A stretch of DNA of 64,000 nt from a virus (taxonomy: Duplodnaviria > Caudoviricetes): positions 7,139 to 71,138 of the IMG/VR virus record IMGVR_UViG_3300032219_001723, one strand, 5' to 3'. Both the position numbers and the translations under genes were made by a program. Below are positions 4,004-35,510 of the stretch, piece by piece. The notes beneath the pieces are model-generated. The model saw only the letters and a program-made list of their open reading frames with translations. It did not search any database and was not told the origin of the DNA. Within the stretch, counting starts at the first letter, position 1. Every line of letters begins with the position of its first letter.

Positions 4004-6904
4004 TTAAATAGTGTTTAATGATAAATTTGGATTTAGAATAAATGGATTAGGTGCGGTTACCGTATTCACATCAGGTCTCTTACAATCCACTATTGTTGTT
4101 GTGTTATTTTTGAACGTAGCATTCACATTAAATATGAAATTAGATGGACATTGTGTTGTTGTTACAACAGGACCGTCGTTAACAATCACATTAGCGCCAC
4201 CAGGTAAATTATAACTATATTCTAATGTTATAACATCATCTTTAACAATTGTAAATGATGCGGTAGCAATTGTCTGACCTGTTGTTCCAAATGTTAGATT
4301 TGGTGTATATGTTTTACTACATGTCGTAGATATACTATTACTTACCGGTGATGTTGATGTTGTCGCTATTGGTGTTCCATTTTTACTTAAAGTTACAATA
4401 TAATCTGTAAAATCATATACATAACTATCGTTAGTTAAATTTCTAATTGTAAGTAAAGTATTGACACTAACTTCACAAGATAATGTTAAACCTGTTGGGA
4501 TGTTGTTCGTACCATTTAATGTGTATTTTTTATACAAACTTCCGAATATTGTCACATAAATACCTGATGTTCCCCCAAACGATGTTTGAGTGGTAACACT
4601 ATATTGATTTTGATTTGTAATCCAATTAAATGAATATTGAGTTACTTGAGATGCCGGCGCAACAATAGCAATTTGTTGACTTGTATTTAAGTTTCCATCT
4701 TTAACTTTAACAACATAGGTACCAGATGCAAGACCAACAAATACGGGACTAAATTGATATGACAATCCATTATTTATTGAATATTGGAATGGTCCTTGAC
4801 CTGTAGTAACACTGATAGATATTTGTCCGTAGTTTGTTGTTGGACTTGCTAAACAACTATTAGGTATTGTCGTTACTGTAAATGAAACGGGGACTGCCAC
4901 ACAAGCACTATTTGTTACAGTAATTGTATCATATGCAGAGCTACCATATAAATTCCAACCTGTTAATGGTGGGTTTGATGTTGATGTTGTAGTAATTTCA
5001 ACACCTGTACCCAAATTATTAGACATCTCCCAAGATTCACTATTCCAATAGATTACCCAAGTACTACCATTTACAGAACCGGTCCAAGATGGTAGTCCAT
5101 TTGTAAACCCTGTATAACTAAATGTTTGTTGAGTATTTTGTGATGGTGTAGAATTACTTATAAAACTAACACATAGATTATTTGTTACCGGAACTGATGG
5201 TGTTGGTGTTTGAGTTAATGTAGGCGTTGGTGATGGTGTAACATCTAAACCGACAGTACAAACAGTTGTAACTGAAAAATCATTATAAAAATCAGTTGTC
5301 GTTGCGGTATAGGTTCCTGCCGATAAATTAGTAATAATTGAACCTGACTTTCCATTAGACCAAGTAGTGTTGTATGGTGCCGTACCACCATAAATACCCA
5401 ATGTAACCGAACCATTTAACGTTCCATTATCATTGGTTGCAGTACAACTAACGTTCAACGGAATAACTGTTTGAACACCACATGGATTTGAAGTTTCAGG
5501 TCTTATAGAAGAAACTGATGGTGTTACTGTTGTTGTTGGTGTATTTGTAGGTGTTGTAGTTGGTGTCGGATTTGGTGTAGACCCCGGAGAACGAGTTACA
5601 GTAGGAGTAGGTGTACTTGTTGTAGTAACAGTAGGTGTTGGTGTTGGAGTTTTTGTTGGTGGCGGTGTTGCGGCAGGTGTCTTACTTGGTAATGGTGTTG
5701 GTGTTACAGTACTTGTAGGTGTTGGTGAAGGTGATGGAGGGTCTAACGATAATTGAGATGAGTTAGGAAGTGCCATACCCGTTGCGTTATCAATAAATGA
5801 AAATGTTAAACCACTAACATCTGTTGAATTCGCACCCGATAGACGATATAATTTATTAGCAACATCGGTTAATGATGTTGTTGGACTAGTTAAGAAATAT
5901 AAATTACCATCGGGTGCCCTTTGAATACCTAAAACTAATATTAAAGTACCATAATCAGGATCCGTTCTAACATCTGTGGGAAGTGTTACCGTAACCGCAG
6001 AACTTGGTAGTGTTTGAACTGTAGTTGTTGATGGTATTCCTGATAGTGTAGGGTAGGATGTTAACCCCGATAAATCAAACCTAAGTAAGTCATTACCCCC
6101 AACATAAACATATCTACCATTAGGTGAAAAATCCGCAGATATTAAATAATTTGCAGAAATATTGTTCCTTGTTGTTGATCCTGTATATGTTATTACATAA
6201 CTCCTATTGTAATTTAATAATATTTTTTCATTTGAGAATTGTCCGGTTGTTTTGTTGAAATCATAGACCGCAACGTTAACAGGTCCGTCATTGTTCTGAG
6301 TACCAACCGCCCAAACCATTTTATTACCACTCGGTGAGAATTTCATCTGACCATATCTATTTTGACCTGAGAACACAAACGATGTTAAAGTCTGTACAGG
6401 AGTTGCAGATATCGTTCCACCCGAAACTAAATATGAGTTGATATATTGTGAGTTTTTAGGTCTTAAAACTAACCAAAATTTGTCAATGTCACTATGTGAT
6501 GTAGTTGTTAATACCTCGGCATAACTACCACTAACAGTACCTGATGATTGAATAATACTATTTGAGTTTAATTTAACCCAACTCAAATTACTTGGAGCTA
6601 ACCAGTTTCTAATGCCGAAAACCCAATAATTGTTAGTATTATATGTGTCTTGTACAATATTACCTGATTGAAAGCTTTGATCACTTCCACCTAAATTAGA
6701 AACAACAGTCGTATTACCACTATTGTAAATGTTAATACCATCAGTGTAGTAAAGTAAATTACCATTATCATCCGATATTGAATCACTACCTTCACGGGTA
6801 TCTAACTGTGTATTGGTATTGATCTTTTGTATTGTTCCGCTACCGAAATAAAACCAATTATTTCTACCAAATATCCAGTTCCAACTATTTTTAATATTTG
6901 CCAT
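4004..6904 (-). CDS. Modular appendage protein: beta-propeller + PT linker + SprB-like repeats
   Basis: 966 aa. NWFYFG/EGSDSISDDNGNLLYYTDG/GQMKFSPSG/DFSPNG/QRAPDGNLY propeller (5761-6904), TPT linker (~5520-5750), and GGTAPYNTTWSNG and FQYSINNG...GLASGTYVVKVKD SprB-type units. Confidence 0.7.
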   Translation of the reverse strand: MANIKNSWNWIFGRNNWFYFGSGTIQKINTNTQLDTREGSDSISDDNGNLLYYTDGINIYNSGNTTVVSNLGGSDQSFQSGNIVQDTYNTNNYWVFGIRNWLAPSNLSWVKLNSNSIIQSSGTVSGSYAEVLTTTSHSDIDKFWLVLRPKNSQYINSYLVSGGTISATPVQTLTSFVFSGQNRYGQMKFSPSGNKMVWAVGTQNNDGPVNVAVYDFNKTTGQFSNEKILLNYNRSYVITYTGSTTRNNISANYLISADFSPNGRYVYVGGNDLLRFDLSGLTSYPTLSGIPSTTTVQTLPSSAVTVTLPTDVRTDPDYGTLILVLGIQRAPDGNLYFLTSPTTSLTDVANKLYRLSGANSTDVSGLTFSFIDNATGMALPNSSQLSLDPPSPSPTPTSTVTPTPLPSKTPAATPPPTKTPTPTPTVTTTSTPTPTVTRSPGSTPNPTPTTTPTNTPTTTVTPSVSSIRPETSNPCGVQTVIPLNVSCTATNDNGTLNGSVTLGIYGGTAPYNTTWSNGKSGSIITNLSAGTYTATTTDFYNDFSVTTVCTVGLDVTPSPTPTLTQTPTPSVPVTNNLCVSFISNSTPSQNTQQTFSYTGFTNGLPSWTGSVNGSTWVIYWNSESWEMSNNLGTGVEITTTSTSNPPLTGWNLYGSSAYDTITVTNSACVAVPVSFTVTTIPNSCLASPTTNYGQISISVTTGQGPFQYSINNGLSYQFSPVFVGLASGTYVVKVKDGNLNTSQQIAIVAPASQVTQYSFNWITNQNQYSVTTQTSFGGTSGIYVTIFGSLYKKYTLNGTNNIPTGLTLSCEVSVNTLLTIRNLTNDSYVYDFTDYIVTLSKNGTPIATTSTSPVSNSISTTCSKTYTPNLTFGTTGQTIATASFTIVKDDVITLEYSYNLPGGANVIVNDGPVVTTTQCPSNFIFNVNATFKNNTTTIVDCKRPDVNTVTAPNPFILNPNLSLNTI

Positions 6905-6905
6905 T

Positions 6906-7136
6906 TTAACTATTAAAACATTTTATAACTAATACTTTATGTCCCTCAATAATTTCCAAAAAATTGTTATAACTTATTGTATTAAATTTATTTACAAGAT
7001 CAGTTGGGAAACTAACAATGAAAAATTCATAATCCTCATCTAATGAAAATTGACACATTTCAACATTATCTTCAAAAACACAATAAACTAACTCTAAGTC
7101 TGAATATTGGTCATATAATAAATTTAACTTTTCCAT
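6906..7136 (-). CDS. Small acidic hypothetical protein
   Basis: 76 aa, fills the gap between flanking genes with 1 and 3 nt spacers. Confidence 0.6.
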   Translation of the reverse strand: MEKLNLLYDQYSDLELVYCVFEDNVEMCQFSLDEDYEFFIVSFPTDLVNKFNTISYNNFLEIIEGHKVLVIKCFNS

Positions 7137-7139
7137 ATC

Positions 7140-8576
7140 TTATGTATTTGAGGGTATTGATGGCATATTACCAAATTGTGAATAACCACCATCATATACT
7201 GATTGTTGTTGAGCACCAAACCAACCAACACAAGTATTTCCTGACAATGCAAAAGTATTGTTAATATTATTTTGTATTGTTAATATCGGTCTAATTCTGT
7301 TTGATTGACCACACGAAGCAGTGTAGAAATTATTACCAGTAGTAATACCTGAAAATCCTATAGCAGACCCTGATACTTCATAAGTAAGTCTTAATCTCAT
7401 ACCATTAGTAAACCCTATTTCAGGTGACTGAATCTGAGTTGAAATAAAGAATGTGGATTGATTAACACTGTTTGTTAATTGACAATATGCAGTATTACCT
7501 GTCAATCCTGTACAAGATGAATCAGTAAATCCTGTCAAACAAGAACCTGATAGTGGTAATGGATTCAAACTACCCGTCTGTTGATTTGTAAATGTTATCG
7601 TTCCACCGGATATAATCTCAGTGGTTGCGGTATATACTTTAACATCGCTAATACCAGAATACACACTTGACTTATTATCTCGGAAAGTAAGTGTTGGTGT
7701 TCCTGAAAATACTGCACCTGTCGGTACCGCACCTGATAATGGAATCTCAAAGATGTATCTATTATAACCGATATAATTGGCAAGTCCATAAGTAACACCT
7801 GACACAACAATTGGTGACAACCCAACCACTGAATTATTAGTTGATGATGTTATTGAATAGTTACTAAGGGCCGATTTTGTACTTGCAGATCCCGGTGATG
7901 GGTCAATTACAACCGATTGTGTTCCCGCACTTGTACTTTGAGTGACAGAACTTACAACAATACCATAAGTACCTGCACTTAAATTACTAAACGTGCTGTA
8001 ATTAGATGCAGTTCTACTTACAAATGTTTGACCACTATCAATTGAATATCTATAATTAGTTTGAACACCAGTTCCTCCCGTAGCATAAACAATAATTCTT
8101 CCGTCACTAACACTTCTTCCTGATGTAACACCATAAGACGCACAACTCAATCCTGAATATTCAACATAAAACCCAAGAGCAGGTAGTGATGTTGTTGGTG
8201 TAACTGTAGGAGTTCTTGTTGGTGTAATTGTTGGTGTGACAGTTCTTGTTGGTGTAATTGTTGGAGTTATAGTAGGAGTGATTGTCGGTGTAACTGTAGG
8301 TGTTGCAGTAACAGTAGGTGTAGGTGTGGGTGATGGTGGCGCATCGTCTTTAACAACCGTACATCCACTAGCATCGATAGTTGCCACAAACAAGTAAGGT
8401 AGTGAATCATATGGTGCCGGTGCCCTAAACGTAAATCCTGTTGAGGTTACCGCACTAATGAAAGTACACTGTGTCTCAATTGTTGATGGGTTAGGATTTA
8501 CCGGGCACAGGTAAACACTTACGGGTAGGTAACCCGTAATATTTGTCATCGTTATCGTAACCGCACTTGCTGCCAT
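7140..8576 (-). CDS. Modular appendage protein: Ig-like cap + PT linker + SprB-like repeat + beta-rich C-domain
   Basis: 478 aa. The N-terminal ~78 aa are paralogous to 8586-8804 and to the N-terminus of 32443-33396; TPT linker; ATGGTG..NYRYSIDSG..NLSAGTYGIVV. Confidence 0.65.
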   Translation of the reverse strand: MAASAVTITMTNITGYLPVSVYLCPVNPNPSTIETQCTFISAVTSTGFTFRAPAPYDSLPYLFVATIDASGCTVVKDDAPPSPTPTPTVTATPTVTPTITPTITPTITPTRTVTPTITPTRTPTVTPTTSLPALGFYVEYSGLSCASYGVTSGRSVSDGRIIVYATGGTGVQTNYRYSIDSGQTFVSRTASNYSTFSNLSAGTYGIVVSSVTQSTSAGTQSVVIDPSPGSASTKSALSNYSITSSTNNSVVGLSPIVVSGVTYGLANYIGYNRYIFEIPLSGAVPTGAVFSGTPTLTFRDNKSSVYSGISDVKVYTATTEIISGGTITFTNQQTGSLNPLPLSGSCLTGFTDSSCTGLTGNTAYCQLTNSVNQSTFFISTQIQSPEIGFTNGMRLRLTYEVSGSAIGFSGITTGNNFYTASCGQSNRIRPILTIQNNINNTFALSGNTCVGWFGAQQQSVYDGGYSQFGNMPSIPSNT

Positions 8577-8585
8577 ATATTATAA

Positions 8586-8804
8586 TTATTGATCTTCTAT
8601 AGTTTGACACCTATTTGCATCAACTATTTTTATTGAAACCGGATATAAGTTCTCAAATGGTGGTTGTAATACAAATGAGTATGACGTACCGGTAATTCTA
8701 GTAACATAATACCAAGTAGTATGTCCTGTATCGGATAGATAAATATCAAAAGGTTGTGACCCAACTATTGATGATATTGAAACTGTTGTTGAACTTGTTG
8801 CCAT
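8586..8804 (-). CDS. Stand-alone ~70 aa Ig-like cap domain protein
   Basis: 72 aa, ISSIVGSQPFDIYL...IKIVDANRC; same pattern as the N-termini of the 7140 and 32443 genes. Confidence 0.65.
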   Translation of the reverse strand: MATSSTTVSISSIVGSQPFDIYLSDTGHTTWYYVTRITGTSYSFVLQPPFENLYPVSIKIVDANRCQTIEDQ

Positions 8805-8816
8805 ATTTTATTTTTT

Positions 8817-11800
8817 TTAAGTAACGGTGTACGTTAAGAACACTTGTGATGGTGAAGTTATTGTTCTAGTTCCACTTATTGTTATACATTGACCACTAGA
8901 ACTTGCATATGTGTTGTTATTTGTCGGCAAACTAGCCGCTGTTGAGAAATACGCTGACAACAGATTAGTACTAACTGAAAGTGTTTGAGAACATCCTCCT
9001 GGTAGGTTTGGAACAGACAATACCGTACCTGAATAGGTTACTTGAAGTGATAACGTATCACCACTTTGGAATGTAAATGGTAAAAACCCAGCAGAACTCA
9101 CAGTTGTTGGTGCCAAATTAGCGGTTCTCCAACCAAAACCGTTATTATACCCCAATCTACTAGCTCGTCTAACCTGATTAAATATTGTTGATCCACTGTT
9201 AGTACAAGTACCACCTGACGGATCAATACCTGATGTTGTTCCCAAACTTCTAGTTGTTGATGTTACCGAAACACCATTTCTAATAATATTTGCGGTGACT
9301 TGCCATGGTTGTGTTGTCATACCTGAGAAGAAACCTGTTTGAGTGTCAAAATTCATACCCCACTGATCATTGAATGACCCATTCCACGTAACTCCTGAAG
9401 GAATATTATTTAATCCTCCTAACGTTGCGGTTCCTGAGTAGACGAACGTGATCGCACTACCCGGATATGTTGTACCTGTAATATCAACAGAATACGCGGT
9501 AGCTGCTGACGATACGAATGTCGGTACTTGTGACCAAGCAAAGGTTATAGCACTAAACGTATTTCCTGAATTAGGTCTTGTAATACTTACAGGTGTTACC
9601 GATGTTTGAGCACCTGTTGAATTATCTTTAACCACGACACCATATGTAGAACTAGAAAGTCCTGTGAATGTTGTTGTAGATGAGAATGTAACACCACTGT
9701 TTATTGAGTATCTATAATTAGATCCTGTAGCACCAGACCCAGTAACACTAATTGTTCCGAAAAATCTATTAGCTGTTCTTGCGGTTAAAGTATAACTTTC
9801 ACAAGTATCATTTGTTGATGATAAACTCAAAACACCGATGGCGGGTAATGACGTTGTTGGTGTAACTGTAACAGTAGGTGTCACGGTAGGTGTTGGTGTT
9901 TTCGTAGGTGTTGGTGTTTTCGTAGGTGTTGGTGTTTTCGTAGGTGTTGGGAAGAAAAGACACTGATGACATGTTGTTGCTGTCGATACAATCCCACCAA
10001 ATAAAACATCAGATGAACCATTTTTATATGTGTTAAATGATAGACATTTTGTAACCCCATTTATAACACCTTCAAATACCGATCCAGGTGTTAATAAAAC
10101 TCCATTATATAATAACGGATCACCAACCAAATAAGTTGTTGATGAATCCGAACAATCAATTAACTCAGCAACCAAACCACCACAAATAAAATTACTATCA
10201 ACAATATAATACACCGCAGATCCTGAAATAGGAACTTTTGTTGGTGCCGGTGTTGATGTCATAGATGGTGTAGGTGTTGGTGTGTTTTGAACCGTATTAA
10301 CACTTAGTGAAAAACTATTACCACCACAAGGATTTGTTGGTGTTATAGTTGGTGTAACACTTGGTGTCATTGTCGGTGTTGGGGTATTTGTTTTCGTAAC
10401 ACTTGGTGTTAATAACACATCACAATTAAAATACACATTAAAGTTTGTATTTTGTGATGAAGGTGTCGGTGTTGGTGTAGGTATATTACATGTTCCAACA
10501 GTCCATATATTTGAGTTTAGATTAGGACAATCTGAACTACATGGTGATGGTCCGAATACCAAACAATCACCACCTAATGATGTAGATAAACACCACTTAT
10601 TTGTTTTCCAAAATACAGTATATGTTGCGGATGAATAAACATCTTTACCACCATAAATACCATATTTCAAATACGTTCCATTGTATGTTGATAACGTTGG
10701 GTTTGTACTATAAAAACAATAATCGGTGTTGGAACATCCTGTTATTACTGTGGGAATACTAGCAAATAGTGGTATATTTGGTAAACCGTAATTAAAGACC
10801 GCAGTGGAAACATTACTCGTCATACTACTAACAGTAAATGACGCTGATGATACCGATAAATTTGGATAATTTATATAATATAAATTTCTTGTATTCCTAT
10901 CTGTAAAGTATATTTTCTCATCAACCGCTAAATGTAACGTACCAATACTAGTTCCTGAAGTTTGATAGAACATTACGTAATTAGTTGACGCAGTTACGGT
11001 AGATGCACTTACAGGTGGTGTTGTATTAAGATTAAACTGTAATACTTTTCCACCATTTGTACTTTGGAACTCAGAAACATATAAGTAATTCCCATCAGGT
11101 GAAAATTCACATCCAATTACGTCCCCAACATCAAATATTTCAGGACTTGATCCATTTTTATTGTAAATAGTGTATCCAGTATTCCCTAATAATACTGTTT
11201 CGTTTGTTAATTCACCAGTACTTCTATTGAAGTCAAAAATACTAACCGCAGGTCTATAAGCACTTCGTGATGGTACCGCATCTGAGTCCGCTAAAACCAT
11301 CGCTATTTTAGAATAATCTGGTGATGGTTTTATCTGCCCATAATTATTATAACCTTGTAAAACTTGAGATGTTGTAGAAGTAAATGGTGTTGATGACACC
11401 CCACTAGAATTGATTAGGAATGAGTGTATTTGATTTCTACCCCAGTTCGGAGTGATTACCCAAATATCTGTTTCGTTTTCGTGTAATGCGGTGGTTAAGA
11501 CCTCGGCATATCCATATCCCGCACCTCCAACAACCACAGGGTATGTTGCACTACCACCACTTATATTTCTATTACCAATTTCAACATTATAGTTAATTAC
11601 TTGAAAAAATGGTGATGTTCCTCCCGTGTATTTAAGGGTATTATATGTTAATGCTTGGTTTGTTTTACCATAACCACCCTCAGTACCTGCAGCACCCACA
11701 CCTAATGTGAAAACATAATAAGTATCAGAACTATATGGTGATTGTAAGATGGTTGCCGCTTGCATTGAAAAGGCACTTCCTGATAATCCTGTAACTATGT

Positions 11801-14064: not shown

Positions 14065-14085
14065 TAAAATGTAAATGTTTTTATA

Positions 14086-14092
14086 ATAAATA
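14086..14092 (-). promoter_or_regulatory. TATTTAT candidate phage promoter element
   Basis: Recurrent intergenic motif, 21 nt upstream of the ATG at 14064. Confidence 0.45.
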
Positions 14093-14119
14093 ACATATTA
14101 TTCGTTTTTGTAACTATTT

Positions 14120-19903: not shown

Positions 19904-19918
19904 TTATCAGTACCCCCT

Positions 19919-27156: not shown

Positions 27157-30100
27157 TAGGCAACCGCTCCTCCTCTAGCATAAACATCATTATTAAATTG
27201 ATCTGATATTGACAACAAAGAAGTTGTTAAATACGCTCGGTAATTACCTTGTGTCCAAGTATTCCCCGTGTAATTTATTAAAACAGAATTATATCCTGAT
27301 ACCACATCGGTTTGATTTGTCACGGCATTTGATGCTGAACCAATTCCGTATCCTAATTTAGTATATTGTACTGCGTCGTTATTCATTCTCCTTGTTGGTA
27401 CAAACGCAACATATGTTGCCGCGTTTCCATTATAAATATTATTCTGTGGAAACTTTACAGTTTGAAATACATAAATTGTATTAGCATTTCCTTGACTATC
27501 CGTACCACTACTACTCTGAGAAATAGTGCTAGTGTATGCCGTTGATCCATTACCTCTATTATTTGTAAATCCTGACCAATCCATATATCTATTTGCCGCA
27601 GCATCATTAAATCCTGTTGTTGTTACACCATTATTACTGAATGTAACCCATGTTGAAAATCCTCCATCTGACATCCAACGATATAGATCACCAGCGTTAT
27701 TTTGATTGTCATTAGCGGTTTCAACAAAAATAACCGCAGGTCTCAAAGGTTCTGAAGTTGATGGTGTTATTGAAGGTGTCACTGTTGGAGTTCTGGTTAA
27801 TGTCGGAGTTATTGTCGGTGTTGGTGTTATAGTTGCGGTTGGTGTCAAAGTCGGAGTAATACTTGGAGTAATAGATGGTGTTGGTGTCATTGTTCTAGTT
27901 ACCGTTGGTGTTACAGTATTCGTAGGTGTAATTGTTGGTGTAGGACTATTTGTAGGTGTTGGAAACAATAAAACACTGAATGTCCCACCTGAATTATTTG
28001 TAAAAATCAATTCTCCGTCTTGGTATGTCGCGCCGGTAACTCTAACGTCAATTTGATGTCTAATAACCCCATTATCATCAATTGTTAAATATTTTGTGTT
28101 ATTATCACCTTGTACAACATTTTTAAGGATTAACGGGTCTTGTGTTTGTGCAGAAATTGTGAAGCCACTATTTGGTCCAACAAAACTAATCGTTTTTCCA
28201 TCTTGATTTATAGTTCTATTAGAACTTAAAACACCATCTTCAGTATAAATGGTTTTAGCTGATATGGTTAATCCGCTAGAGTTAACCCTACTAACAGTAA
28301 CACCACTACTCCCACTGATATTAACCACTGAGGTTGTACCTGAAGATCCTGAAAGTCTTATAGTAGTACTACTCTGATCAACAGATAACGTATAATTTTC
28401 AGAATTCTGTGATGGTAAATTTAAGTATGTTGTTGCGGATATAGTATTAGCAGTTAAACCACCATTCACTGTTAATCCCGTGACAGAATTAAACGACACT
28501 CCAAAAGTACCACCCGTGTTATTGGTAAATGTAAAGGTATTACTTGAATATGTAGCGCCGGTTATAGTAATATCCGTTGGTAAGTTTTGATAAGTTGTTG
28601 CCGATATAGTATTGGCTGTTAATCCTGTAACAGTATTAAATAATACACTGAATGATCCACCTGTACTATTTGTAAATGTGAAAGTATTACTTGAGTATGT
28701 TGCACCGGTCACATTAACATCCGTTGGTAAGTTCAAATAGGTTGTTGCAGATATTGTATTAGCCGTTAAGCCACCATTAACCGTTAGTCCTGTAACAGTA
28801 TTAAATAATACACTGAATGACCCACCTGTACTATTTGTAAATGTGAAAGTATTACTTGAGTATGTTGCTCCCGTTACATTGACATCTGAAGGTAAGTTCA
28901 AATAAGTTGTTGCCGATATCGTATTTGCCGATAACCCACCATTAACAGTTAGTCCCGTTACCGTGTTAAATATCACACTGAAAGTTCCTCCTGTGTTATT
29001 GGTATATGTAAAGGTATTATTAGAATATGTCGCACCTGTTACAAAAACATCCGTACCACCCGTAAAAAACCCACTAACATTAAAAGTACCACCCGTATTG
29101 TTAGTAAATGTTGCAACTCCGTTTGAGTATGTACCACCAGTAACTCTAATATCTGTTGGTAAATTTTGATACGTTGTTGCTGAAATAGTTGTCGCAGAAA
29201 TTGTTGTTGCAGATAATGAACCATTAACAGTTAATCCTGTTAAAGTGTTAAATAAAACACTAAAGGTACCACCCGTGTTATTCCTAAATGTAAATGTGTT
29301 GTTTGAATATGTTGCACCCGTAACAAATACATCCGTACTACCCGAAAATAACCCTGTAACATTAAACGTTTGACCTAAATTATTTGTAAAAGTAATTGTA
29401 CCATTTGAGTAGGTACCACCAGTTACTTTAACGTCCGCTTGATGATGTACAATACCATCATCATCAATTGTTAGATATTTAACATCACTTGATCCTTGTT
29501 GAACCCCTTTAACAATTAAAGGGTCTGTAACCGCAGATATTGTAACCGCAGAAACACTATTTGAAAATGTGGTTTGTCCGTCACTAAATCTTAACGTATT
29601 ACCATTAAGACCAACAATTCGGTTGGAAAATAAAACACCATCCGAATTATAAATTGTTGCCGATGAAAATGTTAAACCACTAACACTATTTCTAACAACT
29701 GATGTCCCTGAAACACCAGTAAAACTAACAAAAGACTCCACCCCTGCCGGTGTTGAGAATAATCTAATGTTCGTTGTACTTGCAGGAATTTGTATCTGAT
29801 ATGAACTACTAACTGTTGTTGTTTGAAATGTTACAGTCCCATCATCCTCTAAAGTAAGATATTTAGATCCAACAACTGTAGAACTAGCACTAACACCGGA
29901 TAGTTTAATTGGACTATTACCTGAGAAGATGGTTTGACCACCACTAAACGTAAGACTATTACCACTTAAATTAACAGATCTATTACCCAGCAATGTCCCA
30001 TTTGAATTATATAAATTAGTAACACCGGTAATTGTTATCGGCGATCCTGAATTAGTATTAAGTGATATTGTTGCCGAAGACAAGGTATAGGTACCTGAAG

Positions 30101-30617
30101 TAACTTGCCAATCAGTACCCCAAAATATTTTCCATCTGGCGGTTTCTCTCGTTGCACCACCATACCCTTCAACTGAAGAATCTAACCAAGCGTTAATAAA
30201 ATCTAATCCTTCAGTTGTCGCACCAAGAACACTTATTGAGTAATTACTCGATACCGTTACCGCACTTGCGTTATTATATAATGTCTCATAATTTGGAATA
30301 ACATACTGATATACAGTATCGGTTTCATAAACATAAACCAACATACCAAGTCTTCTACGACCTGATGATATTCCATCTTTATTTAATACAATTTGTTTAG
30401 TTGTTGAATTAACGAATTGTATTGGTATAGTATTTGCAGTTGATTGTATGGTACCTGTACCCGCAGAATAAAAATTCAAATCATCAATATTCCAAACCTC
30501 CATATAACCACCAATACTGAGAACTGAAAAGTTTGTACCATAAGTTACATTACTAGCAACCGAATCCGGTCCTGTTAATTGTACTGATGTTATTGGATTT
30601 CTATATTGAAAACTCAT
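27156..30617 (-). CDS. Fibre paralog with tandem VTGATY repeats + PT linker + shared C-domain
   Basis: 1153 aa. Same N- and C-domains as its neighbours; seven tandem VTG[AG]TY units. Confidence 0.7.
28411..29435. repeat. Tandem VTG[AG]TY...FTNxxGGxF units (7 copies; full unit 55 aa / 165 nt)
   Basis: Copies at 28623 and 28788 are near-identical in DNA, with exact runs of 32 and 47 nt. Confidence 0.9.
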
Positions 30618-30621
30618 TATA

Positions 30622-32439
30622 TTATATTGTTACTTGGTTTATTTGGAAATAATATGTTTGTGTTCTAGGTGTTGAAGATGGTTTAGTTTGCCAAAACGGA
30701 CTACCTGTCCAATAAACTCTGTAATCACCTGCCGGTAATATACCACCTGATGGAACAGTAATGACATTACTAAAACAAGCACTATCCATAATTAAAGGAT
30801 TGTTTACGATACCATCTATTTTTGACGCACCGTTAACCGAAGATGGTGTTACAGAATCATTAACAAAAATTTCGTTGTCCACCCAAATAGTATATGAATA
30901 ACTATAATTCGGATCGTTATCTGATGTACTTACCGTAAAGGTTGGAACACCATATTTTGTAATTGTTGCACTTAACCCTTGGACACTACCCGTTGAATCC
31001 GCACATCCACTAGATGTTTTACACATATTTTTTGTCAATGGTTGTCTTAACACACCCGTAGATGCTGTCCATCCTGAAAATAAAGCATAATATGAAAGAT
31101 TAGTCCTAACACCTGAAATACTAGTATCCACAGTTGGGTAATTATTAAAATTATACCATAGTCCATATCCTGAATTTGCAGAAATATAATTTTGTATATT
31201 AGTTAATATCGTACCATCATTAGGTTCCATAAATAAGTAAGCTTTATATTGGATAGGTGGTGTTGAAGTAGGTGTTCTAGTAATTGTAGGAGTAGGTGTT
31301 AAAGTCCTCGTTACTGTAGGTGTAACCGTAACACTCGGTGTTAATGTCGGAGTTATTGTTGGTGTCGGAGTAATACTTTTTGTTGGTGTTGGTGTTCTAG
31401 TAACTGAAGGTGTAACCGTATTTGTTGGTGTAGGTGTTGGTGACCCTACTAATTGGACACTAACAATCTGACCTCGATTATCATAGAGATATAATGTACC
31501 ATCAACATATGTTGCACCTGTAGTGTGTTGATCCGGTTGCCACTCAACCTTACCATCCGCATTAGCAATTGTTAAATATTTTGTGTTAATTGTTGATTCT
31601 TGAACCCCTTCCAAAAATAACGGATCTGCCGCCGCAGAAAACGTCGTTGATCCACCTGTGAATTTTAAGGTATATGACCCTAAATCAACAACACGATTAC
31701 CAAGTAAAATACCATTACTATTATAGATATTAACACCGGAACCTCCTCCACCTCCACCACCACCTGATGCGAGTTCAATCCATTGACCACCATCCTGGTC
31801 ATAAATCCAAACAAATTCACTACCAATAGTTGTATTAAACCATCTGTCACCATTATTATGTATAACAACATTCGGTGTAGTTGCTGAAACATAATAATTT
31901 AGAGTACTTCCTGAAGTATCTGTTCTAAAAACTTTCCAATTCGCAATACTTGGTGAAACCGAATCAACATCTTCAATGGTTGATCCTGTCCAATATGTCA
32001 TTAAATTTTGACCACCAACTGTTTGATTATCTAAAATATAACCTGTTGATGTTTGAACTAACGAACCATCAGTTGTTGCACTTTGAAATAATGTTTGATA
32101 ATTTGGTATTTGATACTGATATAATGTTGTTGCAGTAATTACATAAACCAACATCCCTAATTTTCTTCTACCCGAAGAAATTCCATCACGTTCTAAATTC
32201 AACCAAGCATCACCATTTGGTGCTGTTGCCATTGAAATAGGTATTGTGTTTGCGGTTGATAATACGGGTCCGACATTCCCCGGTGGAATAATAAATCTCA
32301 GGTCTTGGTGCGACCAAACCTCCATATAACCACCAACTGCAAGAACGGAATAATTACTTCCGAAATCAGAATTTGACGGTACAGAATTTGGTCCAGATAA
32401 CTGAACGGGTGATATAGGATTCTTATAATTGTATGCCAT
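30622..32439 (-). CDS. Fibre paralog: shared N-domain + poly-Gly hinge + PT linker + shared C-domain
   Basis: 605 aa. GGYMEV...SSGRRKLGMLVYV; GDRWFN...QWIE phage fibre motif; ASGGGGGGGSG hinge. Confidence 0.7.
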   Translation of the reverse strand: MAYNYKNPISPVQLSGPNSVPSNSDFGSNYSVLAVGGYMEVWSHQDLRFIIPPGNVGPVLSTANTIPISMATAPNGDAWLNLERDGISSGRRKLGMLVYVITATTLYQYQIPNYQTLFQSATTDGSLVQTSTGYILDNQTVGGQNLMTYWTGSTIEDVDSVSPSIANWKVFRTDTSGSTLNYYVSATTPNVVIHNNGDRWFNTTIGSEFVWIYDQDGGQWIELASGGGGGGGGSGVNIYNSNGILLGNRVVDLGSYTLKFTGGSTTFSAAADPLFLEGVQESTINTKYLTIANADGKVEWQPDQHTTGATYVDGTLYLYDNRGQIVSVQLVGSPTPTPTNTVTPSVTRTPTPTKSITPTPTITPTLTPSVTVTPTVTRTLTPTPTITRTPTSTPPIQYKAYLFMEPNDGTILTNIQNYISANSGYGLWYNFNNYPTVDTSISGVRTNLSYYALFSGWTASTGVLRQPLTKNMCKTSSGCADSTGSVQGLSATITKYGVPTFTVSTSDNDPNYSYSYTIWVDNEIFVNDSVTPSSVNGASKIDGIVNNPLIMDSACFSNVITVPSGGILPAGDYRVYWTGSPFWQTKPSSTPRTQTYYFQINQVTI

Positions 32440-32442
32440 TTT

Positions 32443-33396
32443 TTACGATACTGTAATACCTTTAAAATAAATATCTAAATTGTTATTTAATCTAAAGTGG
32501 GGTTGACGAGAAGTTGTATAAACTCTGTAAATCCCTTTAGGAATTGTATTACCAGTATAGTTAAAAGTGTAGTCATACACAGTATTTTCCATATTCGCAA
32601 CAACTAAACTTAATGGATCCGATTGATAATTAAATCCAATTTGAGTTTGTTTTAGATTATTTGTGGCATTTGGTGGAATTACCCAAGTGTACCAAGCATA
32701 TTGAGACCCTGTAGGACCTGTTCCCGAAGGTACTCTATGTGTTGTAAAATTATACGCAAAAATTTCGTTACCATAAGCGTCAAAACCTCCACTGACTTGT
32801 GGTATTGTTTGTGTTCTAACCGCTGGCATTGTACCCGCAGTCCAACCACTGAAGCTAACATAAGTATTAAATTGAGTATTAAATGTTGTTTGGTTTTGTG
32901 TTGGATTACTAAAGTTGAATCCGTACCAAGTTTGACTCTGACTATTCATCCAATTGTAAATTGATGTGGACGCACTTACAGGTTCAATAAACAAATAAGC
33001 AAAGTCAGGTGGTGGACACGGTGTTGAAGTTACTGACGGTGTTGGTGTATAAGTTGGTGTAACACTTGGTGTGACCGGTGTTCGTGTTATCGTAGGAGTA
33101 ACACTTGGTGTTAATGTTTTTGTAGGAGTTACTGTTGGTGTTAATGTTTTTGTAGGAGTTACTGTTGGTGTTGGTATCAAATCAGAACACTGAACAATTT
33201 GTATTTGTTGATTACCTGCACCATTAACAATTGTAACAACAAGAAACGCAGTATTTACAGGACAACCAGTAACTGAGAAAGTTTGTGGTGTTCCCGTCAA
33301 TTGTCCAACGTACTGTGAATTTTCACCAAATTCATCCGCAACATAAACACTTGCCGGTAATAATCCTGTAACACTACTAATTGTTATATTTGCCAT
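32443..33396 (-). CDS. Appendage protein: Ig-like cap + PT linker + shared C-domain
   Basis: 317 aa. ISSVTGLLPASVYV cap and AYLFIEP...FSGW...YTWVIP C-domain. Confidence 0.7.
   Translation of the reverse strand: MANITISSVTGLLPASVYVADEFGENSQYVGQLTGTPQTFSVTGCPVNTAFLVVTIVNGAGNQQIQIVQCSDLIPTPTVTPTKTLTPTVTPTKTLTPSVTPTITRTPVTPSVTPTYTPTPSVTSTPCPPPDFAYLFIEPVSASTSIYNWMNSQSQTWYGFNFSNPTQNQTTFNTQFNTYVSFSGWTAGTMPAVRTQTIPQVSGGFDAYGNEIFAYNFTTHRVPSGTGPTGSQYAWYTWVIPPNATNNLKQTQIGFNYQSDPLSLVVANMENTVYDYTFNYTGNTIPKGIYRVYTTSRQPHFRLNNNLDIYFKGITVS
33105..33172. repeat. Perfect 30-nt tandem duplication (encodes TPTVTPTKTL)
   Basis: ttggtgttaatgtttttgtaggagttactg x2 plus a partial copy. Confidence 0.95.
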
Positions 33397-35510
33397 TAAA
33401 AATTACAATTAACATTAAAATTGATAGATAAATTAACATCAAAGTTTTTACCTAATAAATTATCATTTTTATCTGATTTAACTGTAATCTCACCCGTAGT
33501 TTCATCAATAGTAACGTCTGATATGTCAGGATTATTAAATAATAAGTTTCTAACCGTTGCAAAATATACATTATCAGGCATAATATCAGTGAGACTTGTT
33601 GAGTAATAAGCAACTGTTGATCCTGTAGTTGTATCCACAACAACCTCAACAGTGTAATACATAGAGGATAAAACACACCCCGAATATCCATCGGTTACTC
33701 CACTGTAACCCTCATACGTCATAATATCAATACCTAACTTAGATCCACCTGTTTTTGTCATAACACCACTACAATAGTTGTATGTTATTGCAGAAGTATT
33801 TGTAGACCTACATGTGATTGTGGTGGTTTGTGTTTGACTACATCCACTAGCATCGGTAACTAAAACGGAATAAGTACCCGCAGTTAAACCCGTAACCTCA
33901 AATTTTGTGGTTCCTGTTTTACCACTACAATTAGAAGACCACTGAACCGTAAATGGCGGAACACCTGAACTAATATATAGATCAATACCCCCATTAGATC
34001 CTGTACCACAATTTGTAGGGTACAAGAAATAATTCAAATTATTTGATGTTGATACTACAGCATATCGGTTTATTGTACACCCATCATCATCAGAAATACT
34101 AACTGTATAATACCCATCAGGTATTCCATTGAAAGTAACCGCAGATGTTGATTGATTTAGAAATGATTGTGTGAAATTATCATTTGTTATTCTATAATCA
34201 TATGGTGGTGTACCTCCAGATGTTTTAGTAACCAAAACATATCCATTAGCATAACCACAAGTCGTTGCCGTTACACTAGTGGTAGATGAAAATGGTTGTG
34301 TATTTGTGATCGTAAACGTATCACTATATGAACAACTAGTTGTATCTATTATACGAGCAGTATAATTACCTGAACCTAAACTATCATAAGTTACTGATGT
34401 TGAGAATGTTGTTGTTGCACTTATTAGTGTTGTTCCCGCGGACAATCTATATGTGTATGGTGGAGTACCACCAACTATTGATAAATTAACGGATCCGTTA
34501 TTATTACCACAACTTGAATTAGTCGGTAAAATCGTAACACTATTTATCGTTCCTGGTGCTTGTAATGGGGTTGAAAATGTTGCATTACACAATGAACCAT
34601 CTTGAACATAGACTGAAAATATACCATTTGGTATGTCTTCAAAAGTATATGAGGTTAAATACGAACATACAACAACACCTGTACTTGAAGAGTAGTAATA
34701 TGGTCCTGTACCTCCACTAATTGTTAATGTTGCAATCCCGTCACTTGCAAAACAAGAAGGTTGTACCACATTCCATCCACCTAAACTTAATTGTGGTTGT
34801 ACTCCAACCGTTGCATTTTTAACCACAGAACAACCATTAAAAGATGTTGCAGTAACACTGTAACTACCCGCAGTTAATCCTGTAATATATGATTGAGAAC
34901 TACCATTACTCCAATTATAAGTAAATGGTGCGGTTCCCGTTATTCCTGTTATATATAGACGACCAAATGTTGTATCACAACTTGTAGTATTTACCACATA
35001 AAATCCAAAATTAACAGCTGTTGATGATGAAATAACAAATGTCTCAGTACTAGCACTACAACCACCACCGTCAACCGCATCAATATAATAAATCCCTTGA
35101 GGAATGTTATTAAATGTTGTTGTTGCAAAGCTACTTGAGTTTGAATTTATAACATTATTAGTTAAATCTTTTAAGTAATATGTAACATCACTAGTATAAG
35201 AATTTCCAGTAATGGTAACAGAACCATTATCACCACCGCAAGATGTCCCTGATAATGAAGTTATTGTTAAACAAAAACCTGATGATACGTATATACCTAT
35301 AGTAAATTCATTATTTACAGGTGAAGTACTATCATTAACCCTAACATCATAATTACCCGCACACAATCCCGTTCTAAAATCATCATATATACAATTACCC
35401 CAATCAAAATAATATGGTGGAGTACCACCACTTGCGGTTAGTCTAACCGCACCTGAACAGGTATTACTACAATCCCCCGTTAAAAATATATTATATCCAA
35501 ATGCCGCCAT
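33396..35510 (-). CDS. SprB-repeat virion protein
   Basis: 704 aa. About seven units of C..NG.I.L...GGT.PY.Y.W...GL.AG.Y.V.V.D..GC; no signal peptide or T9SS C-terminal domain apparent. Confidence 0.75.
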   Translation of the reverse strand: MAAFGYNIFLTGDCSNTCSGAVRLTASGGTPPYYFDWGNCIYDDFRTGLCAGNYDVRVNDSTSPVNNEFTIGIYVSSGFCLTITSLSGTSCGGDNGSVTITGNSYTSDVTYYLKDLTNNVINSNSSSFATTTFNNIPQGIYYIDAVDGGGCSASTETFVISSSTAVNFGFYVVNTTSCDTTFGRLYITGITGTAPFTYNWSNGSSQSYITGLTAGSYSVTATSFNGCSVVKNATVGVQPQLSLGGWNVVQPSCFASDGIATLTISGGTGPYYYSSSTGVVVCSYLTSYTFEDIPNGIFSVYVQDGSLCNATFSTPLQAPGTINSVTILPTNSSCGNNNGSVNLSIVGGTPPYTYRLSAGTTLISATTTFSTSVTYDSLGSGNYTARIIDTTSCSYSDTFTITNTQPFSSTTSVTATTCGYANGYVLVTKTSGGTPPYDYRITNDNFTQSFLNQSTSAVTFNGIPDGYYTVSISDDDGCTINRYAVVSTSNNLNYFLYPTNCGTGSNGGIDLYISSGVPPFTVQWSSNCSGKTGTTKFEVTGLTAGTYSVLVTDASGCSQTQTTTITCRSTNTSAITYNYCSGVMTKTGGSKLGIDIMTYEGYSGVTDGYSGCVLSSMYYTVEVVVDTTTGSTVAYYSTSLTDIMPDNVYFATVRNLLFNNPDISDVTIDETTGEITVKSDKNDNLLGKNFDVNLSINFNVNCNF

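What the first reader, a model, noticed from the sequence alone, without database searches (positions are those of the whole stretch)
4004..35510. A 31 kb combinatorial cluster of mucin-like (Pro/Thr-stalked) virion appendage genes
Seen: 13 co-oriented, tightly coupled genes directly downstream of the baseplate genes. Nine carry Pro/Thr stalks (TPT[IVN], TPTNT[IV]) punctuated by kinks such as SPPASPS and SPGSSPDPT. A small parts list is reshuffled across them: Ig-like cap (3 genes), [17 protein letters not shown]-domain (4), AYxFxEP C-domain (4), beta-propeller (2), SprB repeat (4), Cys-rich module (3) and a GH-like barrel (1). Established: PT linkers are typical of secreted cellulases/chitinases, and PTS-plus-Cys-domain architecture is typical of animal mucins. 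Neither is the usual trimeric phage fibre build. Inference: the phage carries a coat or brush of flexible tethers, possibly O-glycosylated, that present many different binding or degrading heads, for example to search polysaccharide particles, gels or biofilm for Bacteroidota hosts. I do not recognise this as a described system.
Basis: partly seen in the sequence, partly recalled or inferred. Interest (0 to 1): 0.85.

Follow-up and report, generated by a model that had tools for sequence, protein, structure and literature searches.

The report
Pro-Thr-tethered modular phage tail fibres
A fragment of an uncultured jumbo phage carries an expanded 29 kb set of tail-fibre genes whose binding or sugar-cutting heads hang on long, probably flexible Pro-Thr tethers. 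Related phages also encode a protist-type enzyme that could sugar-coat those tethers, and I found no paper describing such a fibre design.

Summary
Thirteen co-oriented genes lie at 4004-35510. Nine of them carry Pro/Thr tracts: 1,524 of 10,450 residues in the cluster, against 0 of 10,399 elsewhere in the window. The shared modules are real.

- The window is about 23% of a roughly 300 kb myovirus.
- The cluster is the variable cassette of a conserved tail module found in at least 235 uncultured relatives.
- Four genes share an N-terminal anchor. In relatives this anchor is fused to collagen repeats or an S74 chaperone, so the proximal parts look like ordinary trimeric fibres.
- The unusual part is distal. 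Strict (Thr-x)n tethers, predicted disordered, carry a conserved alpha/beta head with no PDB match, a TIM-barrel glycosidase-like domain, SprB-type units and Cys-rich modules.
- None of the 13 proteins has an export signal.

The sugar-coating idea gains indirect support. Seven of nine related records encode a soluble GT60 (mucin-type initiating) transferase. In one complete genome it lies next to two Pro-Thr proteins. This fragment ends about 31 kb before the place where synteny predicts that gene.

I found no paper on such fibres. This scan has noted Pro-Thr-linker phage fibres before, in at least 48 other genomes. I class it as a new variant of a known kind. No biochemistry exists.

The parts
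47906..50208 (-). Context: gp6-like (47906-49741) and gp25-like (49747-50208) baseplate wedge genes. The six conserved unknown genes 35510-47838 follow them.
   Evidence: PHROG 219 (3e-21) and PHROG 261/43 (7e-15). The six genes are syntenic in relatives.
33396..35510 (-). 704-aa protein of about 7 SprB-type repeats with no Pro/Thr tract. It is a conserved core gene that precedes the variable cassette.
   Evidence: Pfam SprB 6.9e-22. Orthologues at 32-39% identity in 73 of 80 related loci.
32443..33396 (-). 317-aa protein: N-terminal beta-sandwich ('cap', 33187-33396), Pro/Thr tether (33004-33186) and conserved alpha/beta C-domain (32446-33003). This is the ancestral, clade-wide member.
   Evidence: AlphaFold2 pLDDT about 90, 46 and 95 for the three parts. 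A one-copy orthologue lies directly upstream of the anchor gene in 76 of 80 loci. 84 metagenomic homologues, all named 'hypothetical'.
30622..32439 (-). 605-aa fibre: N-anchor (31840-32439), short shaft, Pro/Thr tether, C-domain (30625-31245).
   Evidence: BLASTP with Pro/Thr masked; alignments A1 and A2.
27156..30617 (-). 1153-aa fibre: N-anchor (30018-30617), shaft with 55-aa tandem units (about 28413-29400), Pro/Thr tether, C-domain (27159-27752).
   Evidence: 165-nt period, 2.6 copies; families D8 and D9.
24379..27156 (-). 925-aa fibre: N-anchor (26557-27156), shaft 63% identical to that of the S74 fibre, Pro/Thr tether, C-domain (24382-24969). The tether segment 25177-25284 is identical in protein to 27858-27965.
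   Evidence: In one search, 36 aa are identical with 13 nt differences in 11 codons, all synonymous.
19919..24370 (-). 1483-aa classical tail fibre: N-anchor (23771-24370), long beta-rich shaft, C-terminal intramolecular chaperone (20018-20182). No Pro/Thr tract.
   Evidence: Pfam Peptidase_S74 1.4e-16. Eleven tail-fibre PHROGs. PDB 6f45, a long tail fibre distal subunit.
14120..19903 (-). 1927-aa protein: Cys-rich modules, 812 aa of Pro/Thr tethers (main tracts 17531-18625, 15290-16324, 14594-15073), a central beta-sandwich plus (beta/alpha)8 barrel (16325-17530), and a 157-aa C-terminal domain.
   Evidence: AlphaFold2 pLDDT 88, pTM 0.86. Foldseek matches to GH66, GH18, GH84 and GH13 at E about 3e-6. 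VIA-align best match Cwp19 at Z 16.4. 17 homologues among 1.84 billion representatives.
12031..14064 (-). 677-aa protein of Cys-rich modules joined by short Pro/Thr tracts. Block 12442-13212 is shared with the next gene.
   Evidence: 70% identity over 257 aa to 9963-10736. CC...CxxC...C module.
8817..12020 (-). 1067-aa protein: propeller-like N-domain (10737-12020), shared Cys block (9963-10736), Pro/Thr tether, weak SprB-like unit and C-terminal domain (8820-9842).
   Evidence: WD40/Utp9 hints are below threshold.
8586..8804 (-). 72-aa stand-alone copy of the N-terminal beta-sandwich ('cap').
7140..8576 (-). 478-aa protein: cap (8352-8576), Pro/Thr tether, weak SprB-like unit, C-terminal domain.
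   Evidence: A cap-plus-tether homologue occurs in the relatives L040 and G001.
6906..7136 (-). 76-aa acidic protein with no Pro/Thr tract and no homologue found. Possibly an assembly factor (a guess).
   Evidence: No Pfam or PHROG match. No hit in related loci.
4004..6904 (-). 966-aa protein: propeller-like N-domain (5750-6904), Pro/Thr tether, two SprB-type units (5249-5515, 4625-4942), C-terminal domain. It is the last gene of the cassette, followed by the conserved 713-aa gene 1858-3999.
   Evidence: Distant homologues of the N-domain occur in bacterial PKD/CHU_C/Por_Secre_tail proteins. Orthologous tail end of the cassette in G001.

Best explanation
The region is the host-recognition cassette of an uncultured jumbo myovirus with a genome of about 300 kb, probably infecting Bacteroidota. 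It lies between a conserved baseplate module and a conserved 713-aa gene followed by RuvC.

Anchoring (inferred): each protein is fixed to the virion by an N-terminal domain. This is either the roughly 200-aa fibre anchor followed by a trimeric shaft, a roughly 70-aa beta-sandwich, or a propeller-like domain.

Tethers and heads (inferred): each protein carries one or more globular heads on extended, flexible (Thr-x)n tethers of 60 to more than 360 residues. At an assumed 0.3 nm per residue, my own rough figure and not a measurement, that is about 20 to over 100 nm. The heads are the conserved alpha/beta C-domain, SprB-type and Cys-rich modules (probably adhesive) and one TIM-barrel glycosidase-like enzyme. 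The tethers would widen the search radius and allow many heads to bind at once on a polysaccharide-rich cell surface.

Module exchange (inferred): because any in-register join within (Thr-x)n still gives a working linker, the tracts would also serve as the joints at which modules are exchanged.

Glycosylation (inferred): the tethers are probably O-glycosylated in the cytoplasm by a phage-encoded soluble GT60 transferase and extending glycosyltransferases that the clade carries.

Shown: gene order, module sharing, tract composition, predicted folds, clade-wide synteny, and GT60 in relatives. Inferred: virion location, flexibility, binding, enzyme activity and glycosylation.
For: Tail-module context:
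- gp25-like and gp6-like genes lie upstream.
- The same gene order occurs in relatives, with the variable cassette bounded by the SprB gene and the 713-aa gene plus RuvC.

Fibre identity:
- One anchor paralogue ends in Peptidase_S74 and matches tail-fibre PHROGs.
- The anchor family has more than 336 members. Some are fused to Collagen (6e-41), Gly_rich_2 or S74.
- The 925-aa Pro/Thr fibre is 63% identical over 600 aa to the S74 fibre.

Tethers:
- The Pro/Thr tract of the 317-aa protein has pLDDT about 46, between two domains at about 90-95.
- The tracts follow a strict alternate-Thr grammar and occur only in the cassette.
- Stalk length runs from 55 to about 860 aa among orthologues. One pair with identical end domains differs by a 58-aa indel.
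- A 36-aa tether segment is under purifying selection: 13 differences, all synonymous.

Cytoplasmic assembly: no signal peptide or transmembrane segment in any of the 13 proteins.

Joints: 3 of 4 borders of the shared Cys block abut Pro/Thr tracts, and every C-domain follows one. The barrel also occurs, at 93% identity, behind a short Pro/Thr linker on a different N-domain (P0001).

Enzyme head: TIM barrel with nearly invariant E208 and E317 after strands 4 and 7.

Glycosylation:
- PF11397 (GT60) at E 1e-55 to 1e-66 in 7 of 9 related records and 0 of 14 control bacteria.
- The G001 copy has no transmembrane segment. It sits among GT25, HtrL and GT2/GT4 genes and directly beside two Pro/Thr proteins.
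- GT60 is the family that starts mucin-type O-GlcNAc chains in protists, and it has a soluble cytoplasmic member (PMC8724618).

Host: SprB repeats. The N-domain has distant homologues in CHU_C and Por_Secre_tail (T9SS cargo) proteins. The nearest cultured gp6 homologues are in Flavobacterium phages.
Against: - There is no experimental datum of any kind and no cultured relative. The 605-aa fibre has no match in the phage collection.
- No glycosyltransferase lies in this 71 kb record. Its presence is an extrapolation from synteny.
- The C-domain has no match in the PDB, so 'binding head' is a guess. Its conservation of about 50% between phages is high for a receptor-binding tip.
- The oligomeric state beyond the shaft is unknown.
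- The barrel's family, substrate and activity are unresolved. Matches at Z 14-16 are spread over many glycoside hydrolase families.
- The T4 late-promoter octamer is not enriched, so late expression is inferred from operon position only.
- Length differences between near-identical orthologues could be assembly errors in repeats.
Confidence: 0.7

Rival explanations
1. The Pro/Thr-stalked proteins are particle decoration, placed on the capsid, neck or sheath like Hoc or whiskers. They would make the virion stick to environmental gels, particles or biofilm matrix, and would not be baseplate fibres that recognise the host receptor.
For: - The roughly 70-aa N-terminal domain is a generic Ig/FN3-type beta-sandwich, as in decoration proteins.
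- The C-domain is as conserved as structural proteins, not hypervariable like receptor tips.
- The complete relative G001 has Pro/Thr proteins outside the fibre cassette, at about 69-70 kb and about 182 kb.
Against: - All 13 genes lie inside the baseplate-to-fibre module.
- Three of the four C-domains sit on proteins with the tail-fibre anchor.
- No head genes lie nearby.
Confidence: 0.15
2. The proteins are not virion parts. They would be soluble or host-surface factors made late and released at lysis, for example free depolymerase and adhesin modules that condition neighbouring cells or the matrix.
For: - Pro/Thr linkers are otherwise typical of free secreted glycanases (established knowledge).
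- The barrel is glycosidase-like.
- There is no direct evidence of incorporation into virions.
Against: - No export signal on any of the 13 proteins.
- Tight operon coupling with baseplate genes.
- Anchor shared with an S74 fibre.
- The cassette keeps its position across the clade.
Confidence: 0.07
3. The Pro/Thr tracts have no mechanical or glycan-carrying role of their own. They would be neutral by-products of slippage and recombination, tolerated as spacers, and the GT60 enzymes of the clade would act on something else, such as other proteins or host glycans.
For: - Some perfect short tandem arrays show recent slippage, for example 9886-9950 and 18488-18580.
- Stalk length varies widely between orthologues.
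- In most relatives GT60 lies about 63 kb from the fibre cassette.
Against: - Most tract DNA is degenerate (60-78% identity) while the protein grammar stays strict.
- A 36-aa segment shows only synonymous change.
- A 2.4 kb strain-level contig at 96.9% nt identity has only 2 gaps across the tracts.
- In G001, GT60 is adjacent to two Pro/Thr proteins.
Confidence: 0.1

Closest known systems
Multi-receptor-binding-protein tail fibre or tailspike clusters, in which paralogues share a conserved N-terminal attachment domain and carry different distal parts. Examples recalled from memory: the Kuttervirus CBA120 TSP1-4 set and the Klebsiella phage PhiK64-1 depolymerase set. A branched-fibre paper on T5-like phages appears in the reference list seen.
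   Same: Several adjacent paralogous genes downstream of baseplate genes. One shared N-terminal anchor with swapped distal modules. One member has an S74 chaperone. One carries an enzyme-like head.
   Different: Distal modules hang on long disordered (Thr-x)n tethers and are not part of a rigid trimeric beta-helix. Heads include SprB-type, Cys-rich and unmatched alpha/beta domains. No sequence homology to those systems was found.
Collagen-like (Gly-X-Y) and other low-complexity repeats in phage tail fibres (cyanophage P-SSM2, PMC1079782)
   Same: A low-complexity, length-variable repeat segment between the conserved anchor and the variable distal parts. Relatives of this very anchor carry collagen repeats.
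   Different: Collagen repeats form an obligate rigid triple helix. (TPTx)n lacks Gly, is predicted disordered, and resembles polyproline-II-type linkers.
Pro/Thr linkers of secreted bacterial and fungal glycanases and of Bacteroidota surface proteins (established knowledge)
   Same: Composition, interdomain position, extended-spacer role, association with carbohydrate-active and binding modules, frequent O-glycosylation.
   Different: Here the proteins have no signal peptide and are encoded in a phage tail module. Any glycosylation must take place in the cytoplasm.
Mucin-type O-glycosylation started by GT60 polypeptide alpha-GlcNAc-transferases of protists, including the soluble cytoplasmic Skp1 enzyme (PMC8724618)
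   Same: Thr/Pro-rich acceptor tracts. A PF11397 enzyme at E 1e-55 to 1e-66 in 7 of 9 related phage records. It is soluble and is followed by other glycosyltransferases.
   Different: Bacterial-virus context. The enzyme was not found in this 71 kb fragment. No chemistry has been done. The Cys-rich modules show no relation to mucin VWD or cystine-knot domains.
Virion O-glycosylation of mycobacteriophages by phage-encoded glycosyltransferases (Freeman et al. 2023, as cited in PMC11256854)
   Same: Precedent that tailed phages glycosylate their own structural proteins in the cytoplasm with their own enzymes.
   Different: There the capsid proteins are modified, as cited in PMC11256854, not long dedicated Pro/Thr stalks in fibres. 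As far as I recall, other glycosyltransferase families and other hosts are involved.

Membership tests
Phage tail fibre with C-terminal intramolecular chaperone (Peptidase_S74) | S74 chaperone domain at the C-terminus | tested here: met
   Gene 19919-24370: PF13884, 61 bits against a cut-off of 22, residues 1397-1451. The nine Pro/Thr proteins do not have it.
Phage tail fibre with C-terminal intramolecular chaperone (Peptidase_S74) | Trimeric shaft and autoproteolytic release of the chaperone | not testable with these tools
   Needs multimer modelling or biochemistry. Indirect support only: relatives of the anchor carry collagen repeats.
T4-type contractile-tail baseplate module | gp25-like and gp6-like wedge genes next to the fibre genes | tested here: met
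   PHROG 261/43 and PHROG 219. Six further conserved genes remain unassigned.
SprB repeat proteins (Pfam PF13573) | Score above the Pfam gathering threshold | tested here: met
   33396-35510: 77.2 bits against a cut-off of 28. The 4004 gene scores only 16.9 bits in Pfam, but phmmer against 33396-35510 gives 1e-9 and 2e-5. Genes 7140 and 8817 give weak matches only.
Glycoside hydrolase with (beta/alpha)8 barrel | TIM-barrel fold matching solved glycoside hydrolases | tested here: met
   AlphaFold2 pLDDT 88. Foldseek gives 445 PDB matches at E <= 0.001, led by GH66, GH18, GH13 and GH84. VIA-align Z 14-16.4.
Glycoside hydrolase with (beta/alpha)8 barrel | Assignment to one CAZy family, and catalytic acids in place | tested here: inconclusive
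   No Pfam or PDB sequence match. Matches are tied across many families. The nearly invariant E208 and E317 follow strands 4 and 7 by secondary-structure order only.
Secreted Pro/Thr-linker glycanase or adhesin architecture | Pro/Thr-rich linker between folded modules | tested here: met
Secreted Pro/Thr-linker glycanase or adhesin architecture | N-terminal export signal (or a T9SS C-terminal domain) | tested here: not met
   Highest 12-aa Kyte-Doolittle mean in the first 40 residues is at most 1.64, and there are no transmembrane-like windows. No Por_Secre_tail or CHU_C hit. This was a crude hydropathy test, not a dedicated predictor.
Animal gel-forming mucins | PTS tandem-repeat domains | tested here: met
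   In composition only: T 40.6%, P 25.1%, S 6.7%.
Animal gel-forming mucins | VWD, C8 or cystine-knot Cys-rich domains and secretion | tested here: not met
   No such Pfam family at E <= 1 on the Cys-rich pieces. No signal peptides.
GT60-dependent mucin-type O-glycosylation system | A GT60 (PF11397) gene in the same genome as the Thr/Pro acceptor proteins | tested here: inconclusive
   Absent from the 71 kb record, which is 23% of the genome. Present in 7 of 9 related records. Synteny places it about 31 kb beyond the record's end.
GT60-dependent mucin-type O-glycosylation system | Sugar attached to Thr (or Hyp) of the tracts | not testable with these tools
   Needs mass spectrometry or an enzyme assay.

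The most novel reading that the evidence does not exclude
An abundant clade of uncultured jumbo phages builds part of its host-recognition apparatus as mucin-like glycoprotein tentacles. Trimeric fibre shafts or small anchors would split into long (Thr-x)n tethers. A phage-encoded, protist-type soluble GT60 transferase and extending enzymes would O-glycosylate these tethers in the bacterial cytoplasm. The tethers would present interchangeable adhesin and glycosidase heads. This would be a fibre design and a virion modification not described for bacterial viruses.
Probability: 0.4. Interest if true: 0.85.

Novelty: new variant of a known kind. Interest (0 to 1): 0.66.

Why it matters
Host recognition by tailed phages is understood almost entirely through rigid trimeric fibres and spikes. 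If these long flexible Pro/Thr tethers are real virion parts, they add a different physical principle: polymer-like reach, multivalent binding, and enzyme heads on leashes.

They also offer a simple genetic way to shuffle heads, because any in-register join within the tether is tolerated. The link to a GT60 enzyme gives a directly testable route to a second, sequence-predictable kind of phage virion glycosylation, after the mycobacteriophage case.

The clade is large: at least 235 relatives in IMG/VR and more than 336 anchor proteins in metagenomes. The result would therefore bear on how abundant environmental phages find polysaccharide-coated hosts. Contigs of this clade tend to end in these genes, so the region is under-represented in assemblies.

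Tried and rejected
- Pfam and PHROGs on all 13 proteins and on excised domains gave only SprB, S74 and tail-fibre PHROGs. The hits to phrog_15511 and phrog_38031 match mainly the Pro/Thr tracts.
- PDB sequence searches with the barrel, the anchor profile, the C-domain profile and the propeller-like domain found nothing significant.
- Foldseek against the PDB found no match for the C-domain. The wide VIA-align search was filled by the beta-sandwich cap, so the C-domain was barely tested. BFVD returned only an uncharacterised homologue. The ESM Atlas gave no usable hit.
- The cap's top match to T9SS C-terminal domains (Z 7.0) is tied with many FN3/Ig domains, so I do not read it as T9SS-related.
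- I tested whether the cap is a single SprB unit. It is not supported (hmmsearch E = 4).
- The T4 late promoter TATAAATA gives 11 matches against 15.9 expected, so it is not enriched.
- A cultured relative was sought with the 605-aa fibre. None was found.
- Near relatives were sought in viral contigs with the propeller-like domain. None was found. The one metagenome scan returned only a 2.4 kb contig.
The 292 kb contig holding a 92%-identical copy of the 966-aa protein could therefore not be read.
- The search for related loci with the C-domain alignment failed for lack of a conserved stretch.
- Literature searches for Pro-Thr linkers in phage fibres and for GT60 in phages found nothing relevant.
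- 2OG-Fe(II) oxygenases occur in 2 of 5 records. They are common in phages, so I do not take them as evidence of hydroxylation.


Full report
**What the window is**

All large ORFs lie on the minus strand. The window is bases 7139-71138 of a 71,138-bp IMG/VR virus record that CheckV rates 23% complete, which implies a genome of about 300 kb.

PHROG searches identify these genes:
- a primase, a RuvC-like resolvase, a DnaB helicase, an exonuclease, a UvsX-like recombinase, an SSB and a ribonucleotide reductase;
- a gp25-like wedge gene (49747-50208) and a gp6-like wedge gene (47906-49741).

The nearest deposited relatives of the gp6-like protein are only 26-28% identical. They are a 484 kb uncultured phage, Flavobacterium phage immuto and a Microcystis phage. 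The phage therefore has no close cultured relative.

**Checking the observation**

Thirteen tightly packed minus-strand ORFs fill 4004-35510.

I used a simple rule for a Pro/Thr tract: 12-aa windows with at least 58% P+T and at least 3 P. By this rule nine ORFs have tracts of at least 20 aa.
- The tracts total 1,524 of 10,450 residues in the cluster. The other 19 ORFs of the window have 0 of 10,399 residues.
- Composition is 40.6% Thr and 25.1% Pro. The tracts carry a net positive charge.
- The grammar is strict. Given Thr at position i, Thr is at i+2 in 82.5% of cases. Pro-Pro spacing is 2, 4, 6 or 8 in 317 of 350 cases.
- The sequence is thus (Thr-x)n, with x = Pro, Ile, Val, Asn or Arg.

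At the DNA level most tracts are degenerate, with copies 60-78% identical. A few are perfect short arrays. The protein pattern is therefore maintained, not merely generated by recent slippage.

BLASTP with the tracts masked confirms the shared parts:
- a roughly 200-aa N-terminal domain in four consecutive genes;
- a roughly 190-aa C-terminal domain in four genes;
- an N-terminal domain shared by the 966-aa and 1067-aa proteins;
- a 257-aa Cys-rich block, 70% identical, shared by two genes.

A CC...C...CxxC...C module recurs four times. The three 'caps' align at 28-29% identity. SprB repeats are certain in the 704-aa protein and in two units of the 966-aa protein. They are only weak in two others. 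The 'beta-propeller' label remains unverified.

**Relatives and synteny**

The anchor alignment found 235 relatives in IMG/VR, and 80 loci were fetched. In 76 of 80 loci there is exactly one gene with the C-domain, directly upstream of exactly one anchor gene.

The gene order is conserved:
- six unassigned genes that follow gp6;
- the SprB-repeat gene;
- the cap-tether-C-domain gene;
- the anchor fibre gene;
- a variable stretch;
- a 713-aa gene, then RuvC and the primase.

In the relatives whose contigs reach the 713-aa gene (L040, L065, L078, L072), the variable stretch holds zero to three genes. Here, counted from the cap gene at 33396 to the last cassette gene at 4004, it is 12 genes and 29 kb. 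The finding is thus an expanded copy of a clade-wide cassette. Its first gene, the SprB protein, belongs to the conserved core.

The complete 317 kb relative G001 has the same tail end of the cassette. In order it carries a Cys-block Pro/Thr protein, a cap-plus-tether protein, a protein like the 966-aa one, the 713-aa gene and RuvC. It has at least seven Pro/Thr proteins in all.

Forty-eight of 78 related contigs end within 3 kb of the start of the fibre gene. Assemblies usually break here, and this record is a rare complete view.

**Fibre identity**

One anchor paralogue (1483 aa) ends in a Peptidase_S74 intramolecular chaperone and matches eleven tail-fibre PHROGs. It also matches the S16 long-tail-fibre tip weakly.

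The anchor family has more than 336 metagenomic members, all unnamed. Some are fused to collagen triple-helix repeats (6e-41), Gly_rich_2 or S74. Those partners mark trimeric tail fibres.

The 925-aa Pro/Thr protein is 63% identical to the S74 fibre over its first 600 residues. Its proximal part must therefore have the same build.

I infer that a trimeric shaft there frays into three tethers, each with a head. This was not tested.

**The clade-wide member**

AlphaFold2 was run on the 317-aa protein with a 35-sequence alignment (mean pLDDT 84.9). It gives three parts:
- a 7-strand beta-sandwich at residues 1-70 (pLDDT about 90);
- an unstructured tract at residues 75-130 (pLDDT about 46);
- a compact alpha/beta domain at residues 132-317 (pLDDT about 95).

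The sandwich matches generic Ig/FN3 folds. T9SS C-terminal domains come top at Z 7.0 but are tied with many others. The C-domain has no match in the PDB by Foldseek or by sequence profile. Its only relatives are uncharacterised metagenomic proteins.

The sandwich is N-terminal in all three genes that have it, and fibres attach by their N-termini. I therefore read it as an anchor, not a cap. That is inference.

Among orthologues the stretch between sandwich and C-domain ranges from 55 to about 860 aa. One pair with 100% identical end domains differs by 58 aa, although an assembly error cannot be excluded.

At strain level (96.9% nt identity) the tracts are stable, with 2 gaps in 2.4 kb. A 36-aa stretch at the start of the tether is identical in the 925-aa and 1153-aa paralogues, although 11 codons differ, all synonymously. 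The tether sequence is therefore constrained, at least in part.

**The enzyme-like head**

Residues 792-1193 of the 1927-aa protein have only 17 homologues among 1.84 billion representative proteins.
- One homologue, 93% identical, has a different N-domain and a short Pro/Thr linker.
- Others sit inside fibre-like proteins with SHAEG-type repeats.

AlphaFold2 (pLDDT 88, pTM 0.86) gives an N-terminal beta-sandwich plus eight beta/alpha units. Foldseek returns 445 PDB matches at E <= 0.001. The top-ranked ones are nearly all glycoside hydrolases. VIA-align puts the Clostridium difficile Cwp19 functional region first (Z 16.4), followed by many glycoside hydrolase families at Z 14-15.

Two nearly invariant glutamates, E208 and E317, follow the fourth and seventh strands by secondary-structure order. 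This is the classical arrangement in clan GH-A, by established knowledge. The family and the substrate remain open.

**Export and glycosylation**

None of the 13 proteins has a signal-peptide-like or transmembrane segment. Assembly, and any modification, must therefore be cytoplasmic.

Earlier notes of this scan on other genomes reported GT60 genes beside Pro/Thr-linker fibres, so I tested that here.
- PF11397 is absent from this 71 kb record.
- It is present at E 1e-55 to 1e-66 in 7 of 9 related records, and in 0 of 14 control bacterial genomes.
- The two related records without it are fragments rated 43% and 29% complete.
- In three records whose contig begins in the fibre gene, GT60 lies at 66-67 kb. 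That is about 63 kb upstream of the anchor gene, or about 31 kb beyond the end of this record.
- In G001 the enzyme has no transmembrane segment.
- The G001 copy sits with GT25-like, HtrL_YibB-like and GT2/GT4 genes. It lies directly beside two modular Pro/Thr proteins of 364 and 372 aa.

GT60 is the family of protist polypeptide alpha-GlcNAc-transferases that start mucin-type chains. It includes a soluble cytoplasmic member (PMC8724618). Virion glycosylation by phage enzymes has a precedent in mycobacteriophages (Freeman et al. 2023, as cited in PMC11256854).

Glycosylation of the tethers is thus a reasonable inference, but an untested one. I put it at roughly even odds for this phage.

**Host**

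Three indirect lines point to Bacteroidota:
- SprB repeats are present.
- The N-domain of the 966-aa protein has distant homologues (25-29% identity, E 1e-7 to 4e-9) in bacterial proteins with PKD plus CHU_C or Por_Secre_tail domains, which are T9SS cargo.
- The nearest cultured gp6 homologues are in Flavobacterium phages.

No direct host link was made.

**Literature and earlier notes**

Five searches found no paper on Pro-Thr linkers in phage fibres or on GT60 in phages. The nearest published feature is the collagen-like repeat of phage fibres (PMC1079782).

Within this scan, 57 earlier notes in at least 48 genomes describe Pro/Thr-linker phage fibres. The phenomenon therefore recurs, and this window is one large, well-resolved example.

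**Verdict**

The region is best described as an expanded modular tail-fibre cassette. Its proximal parts are canonical. Its distal parts are heads on (Thr-x)n tethers, probably glycosylated.

I class it as a new variant of a known kind. Everything beyond sequence, predicted fold and synteny is inference.

This prevented reading the near-identical 292 kb contig.

Noticed in passing
L094:4839-8459 (= G001:C1:66838-70458): In the complete 317 kb relative, a soluble GT60 (PF11397, 1e-66) gene is directly preceded on the same strand by two modular Cys-containing Pro/Thr proteins (364 and 372 aa). It is followed by GT25-like and HtrL_YibB-like genes.
   Followed up: partly
window 25177-25284 and 27858-27965: A 36-aa stretch of Pro/Thr tether is identical in two paralogues, with 13 nucleotide differences in 11 codons, all synonymous. 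It is better conserved than the folded shaft next to it (55% aa identity).
   Followed up: yes
L009-L088 (related IMG/VR loci): 48 of 78 related contigs end within 3 kb after the start of the anchor fibre gene. Assemblies of this clade usually break in the cassette.
   Followed up: partly
L059:8143-9966 versus L060:7969-9966: Two orthologues with 100% identical N-terminal sandwich and C-domain differ by a 58-aa indel in the Pro/Thr stalk. This is either rapid length change or an assembly artefact.
   Followed up: no
window 6906-7136: A 76-aa acidic ORF between fibre genes has no homologue in Pfam, PHROGs or the related loci. It may be a fibre assembly factor.
   Followed up: no
window 28413-29400: The shaft of the 1153-aa fibre contains about five tandem 55-aa (165-nt) units at 64-84% nt identity.
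   Followed up: no
window 58314-63998: A minus-strand ORF of at least 1879 aa runs off the window end. It has no PHROG match and sits upstream of the replication genes.
   Followed up: no
window 52518-52615: The listed ORFs for the DnaB-like helicase and the ribonucleotide reductase overlap by 98 nt. The TTG start listed for the reductase is probably too far upstream.
   Followed up: no
L098:552-2714 (G001 at about 181-183 kb): A 721-aa protein with 154 aa of Pro/Thr tract lies far from the fibre cassette in the complete relative. Its neighbourhood was not annotated.
   Followed up: no
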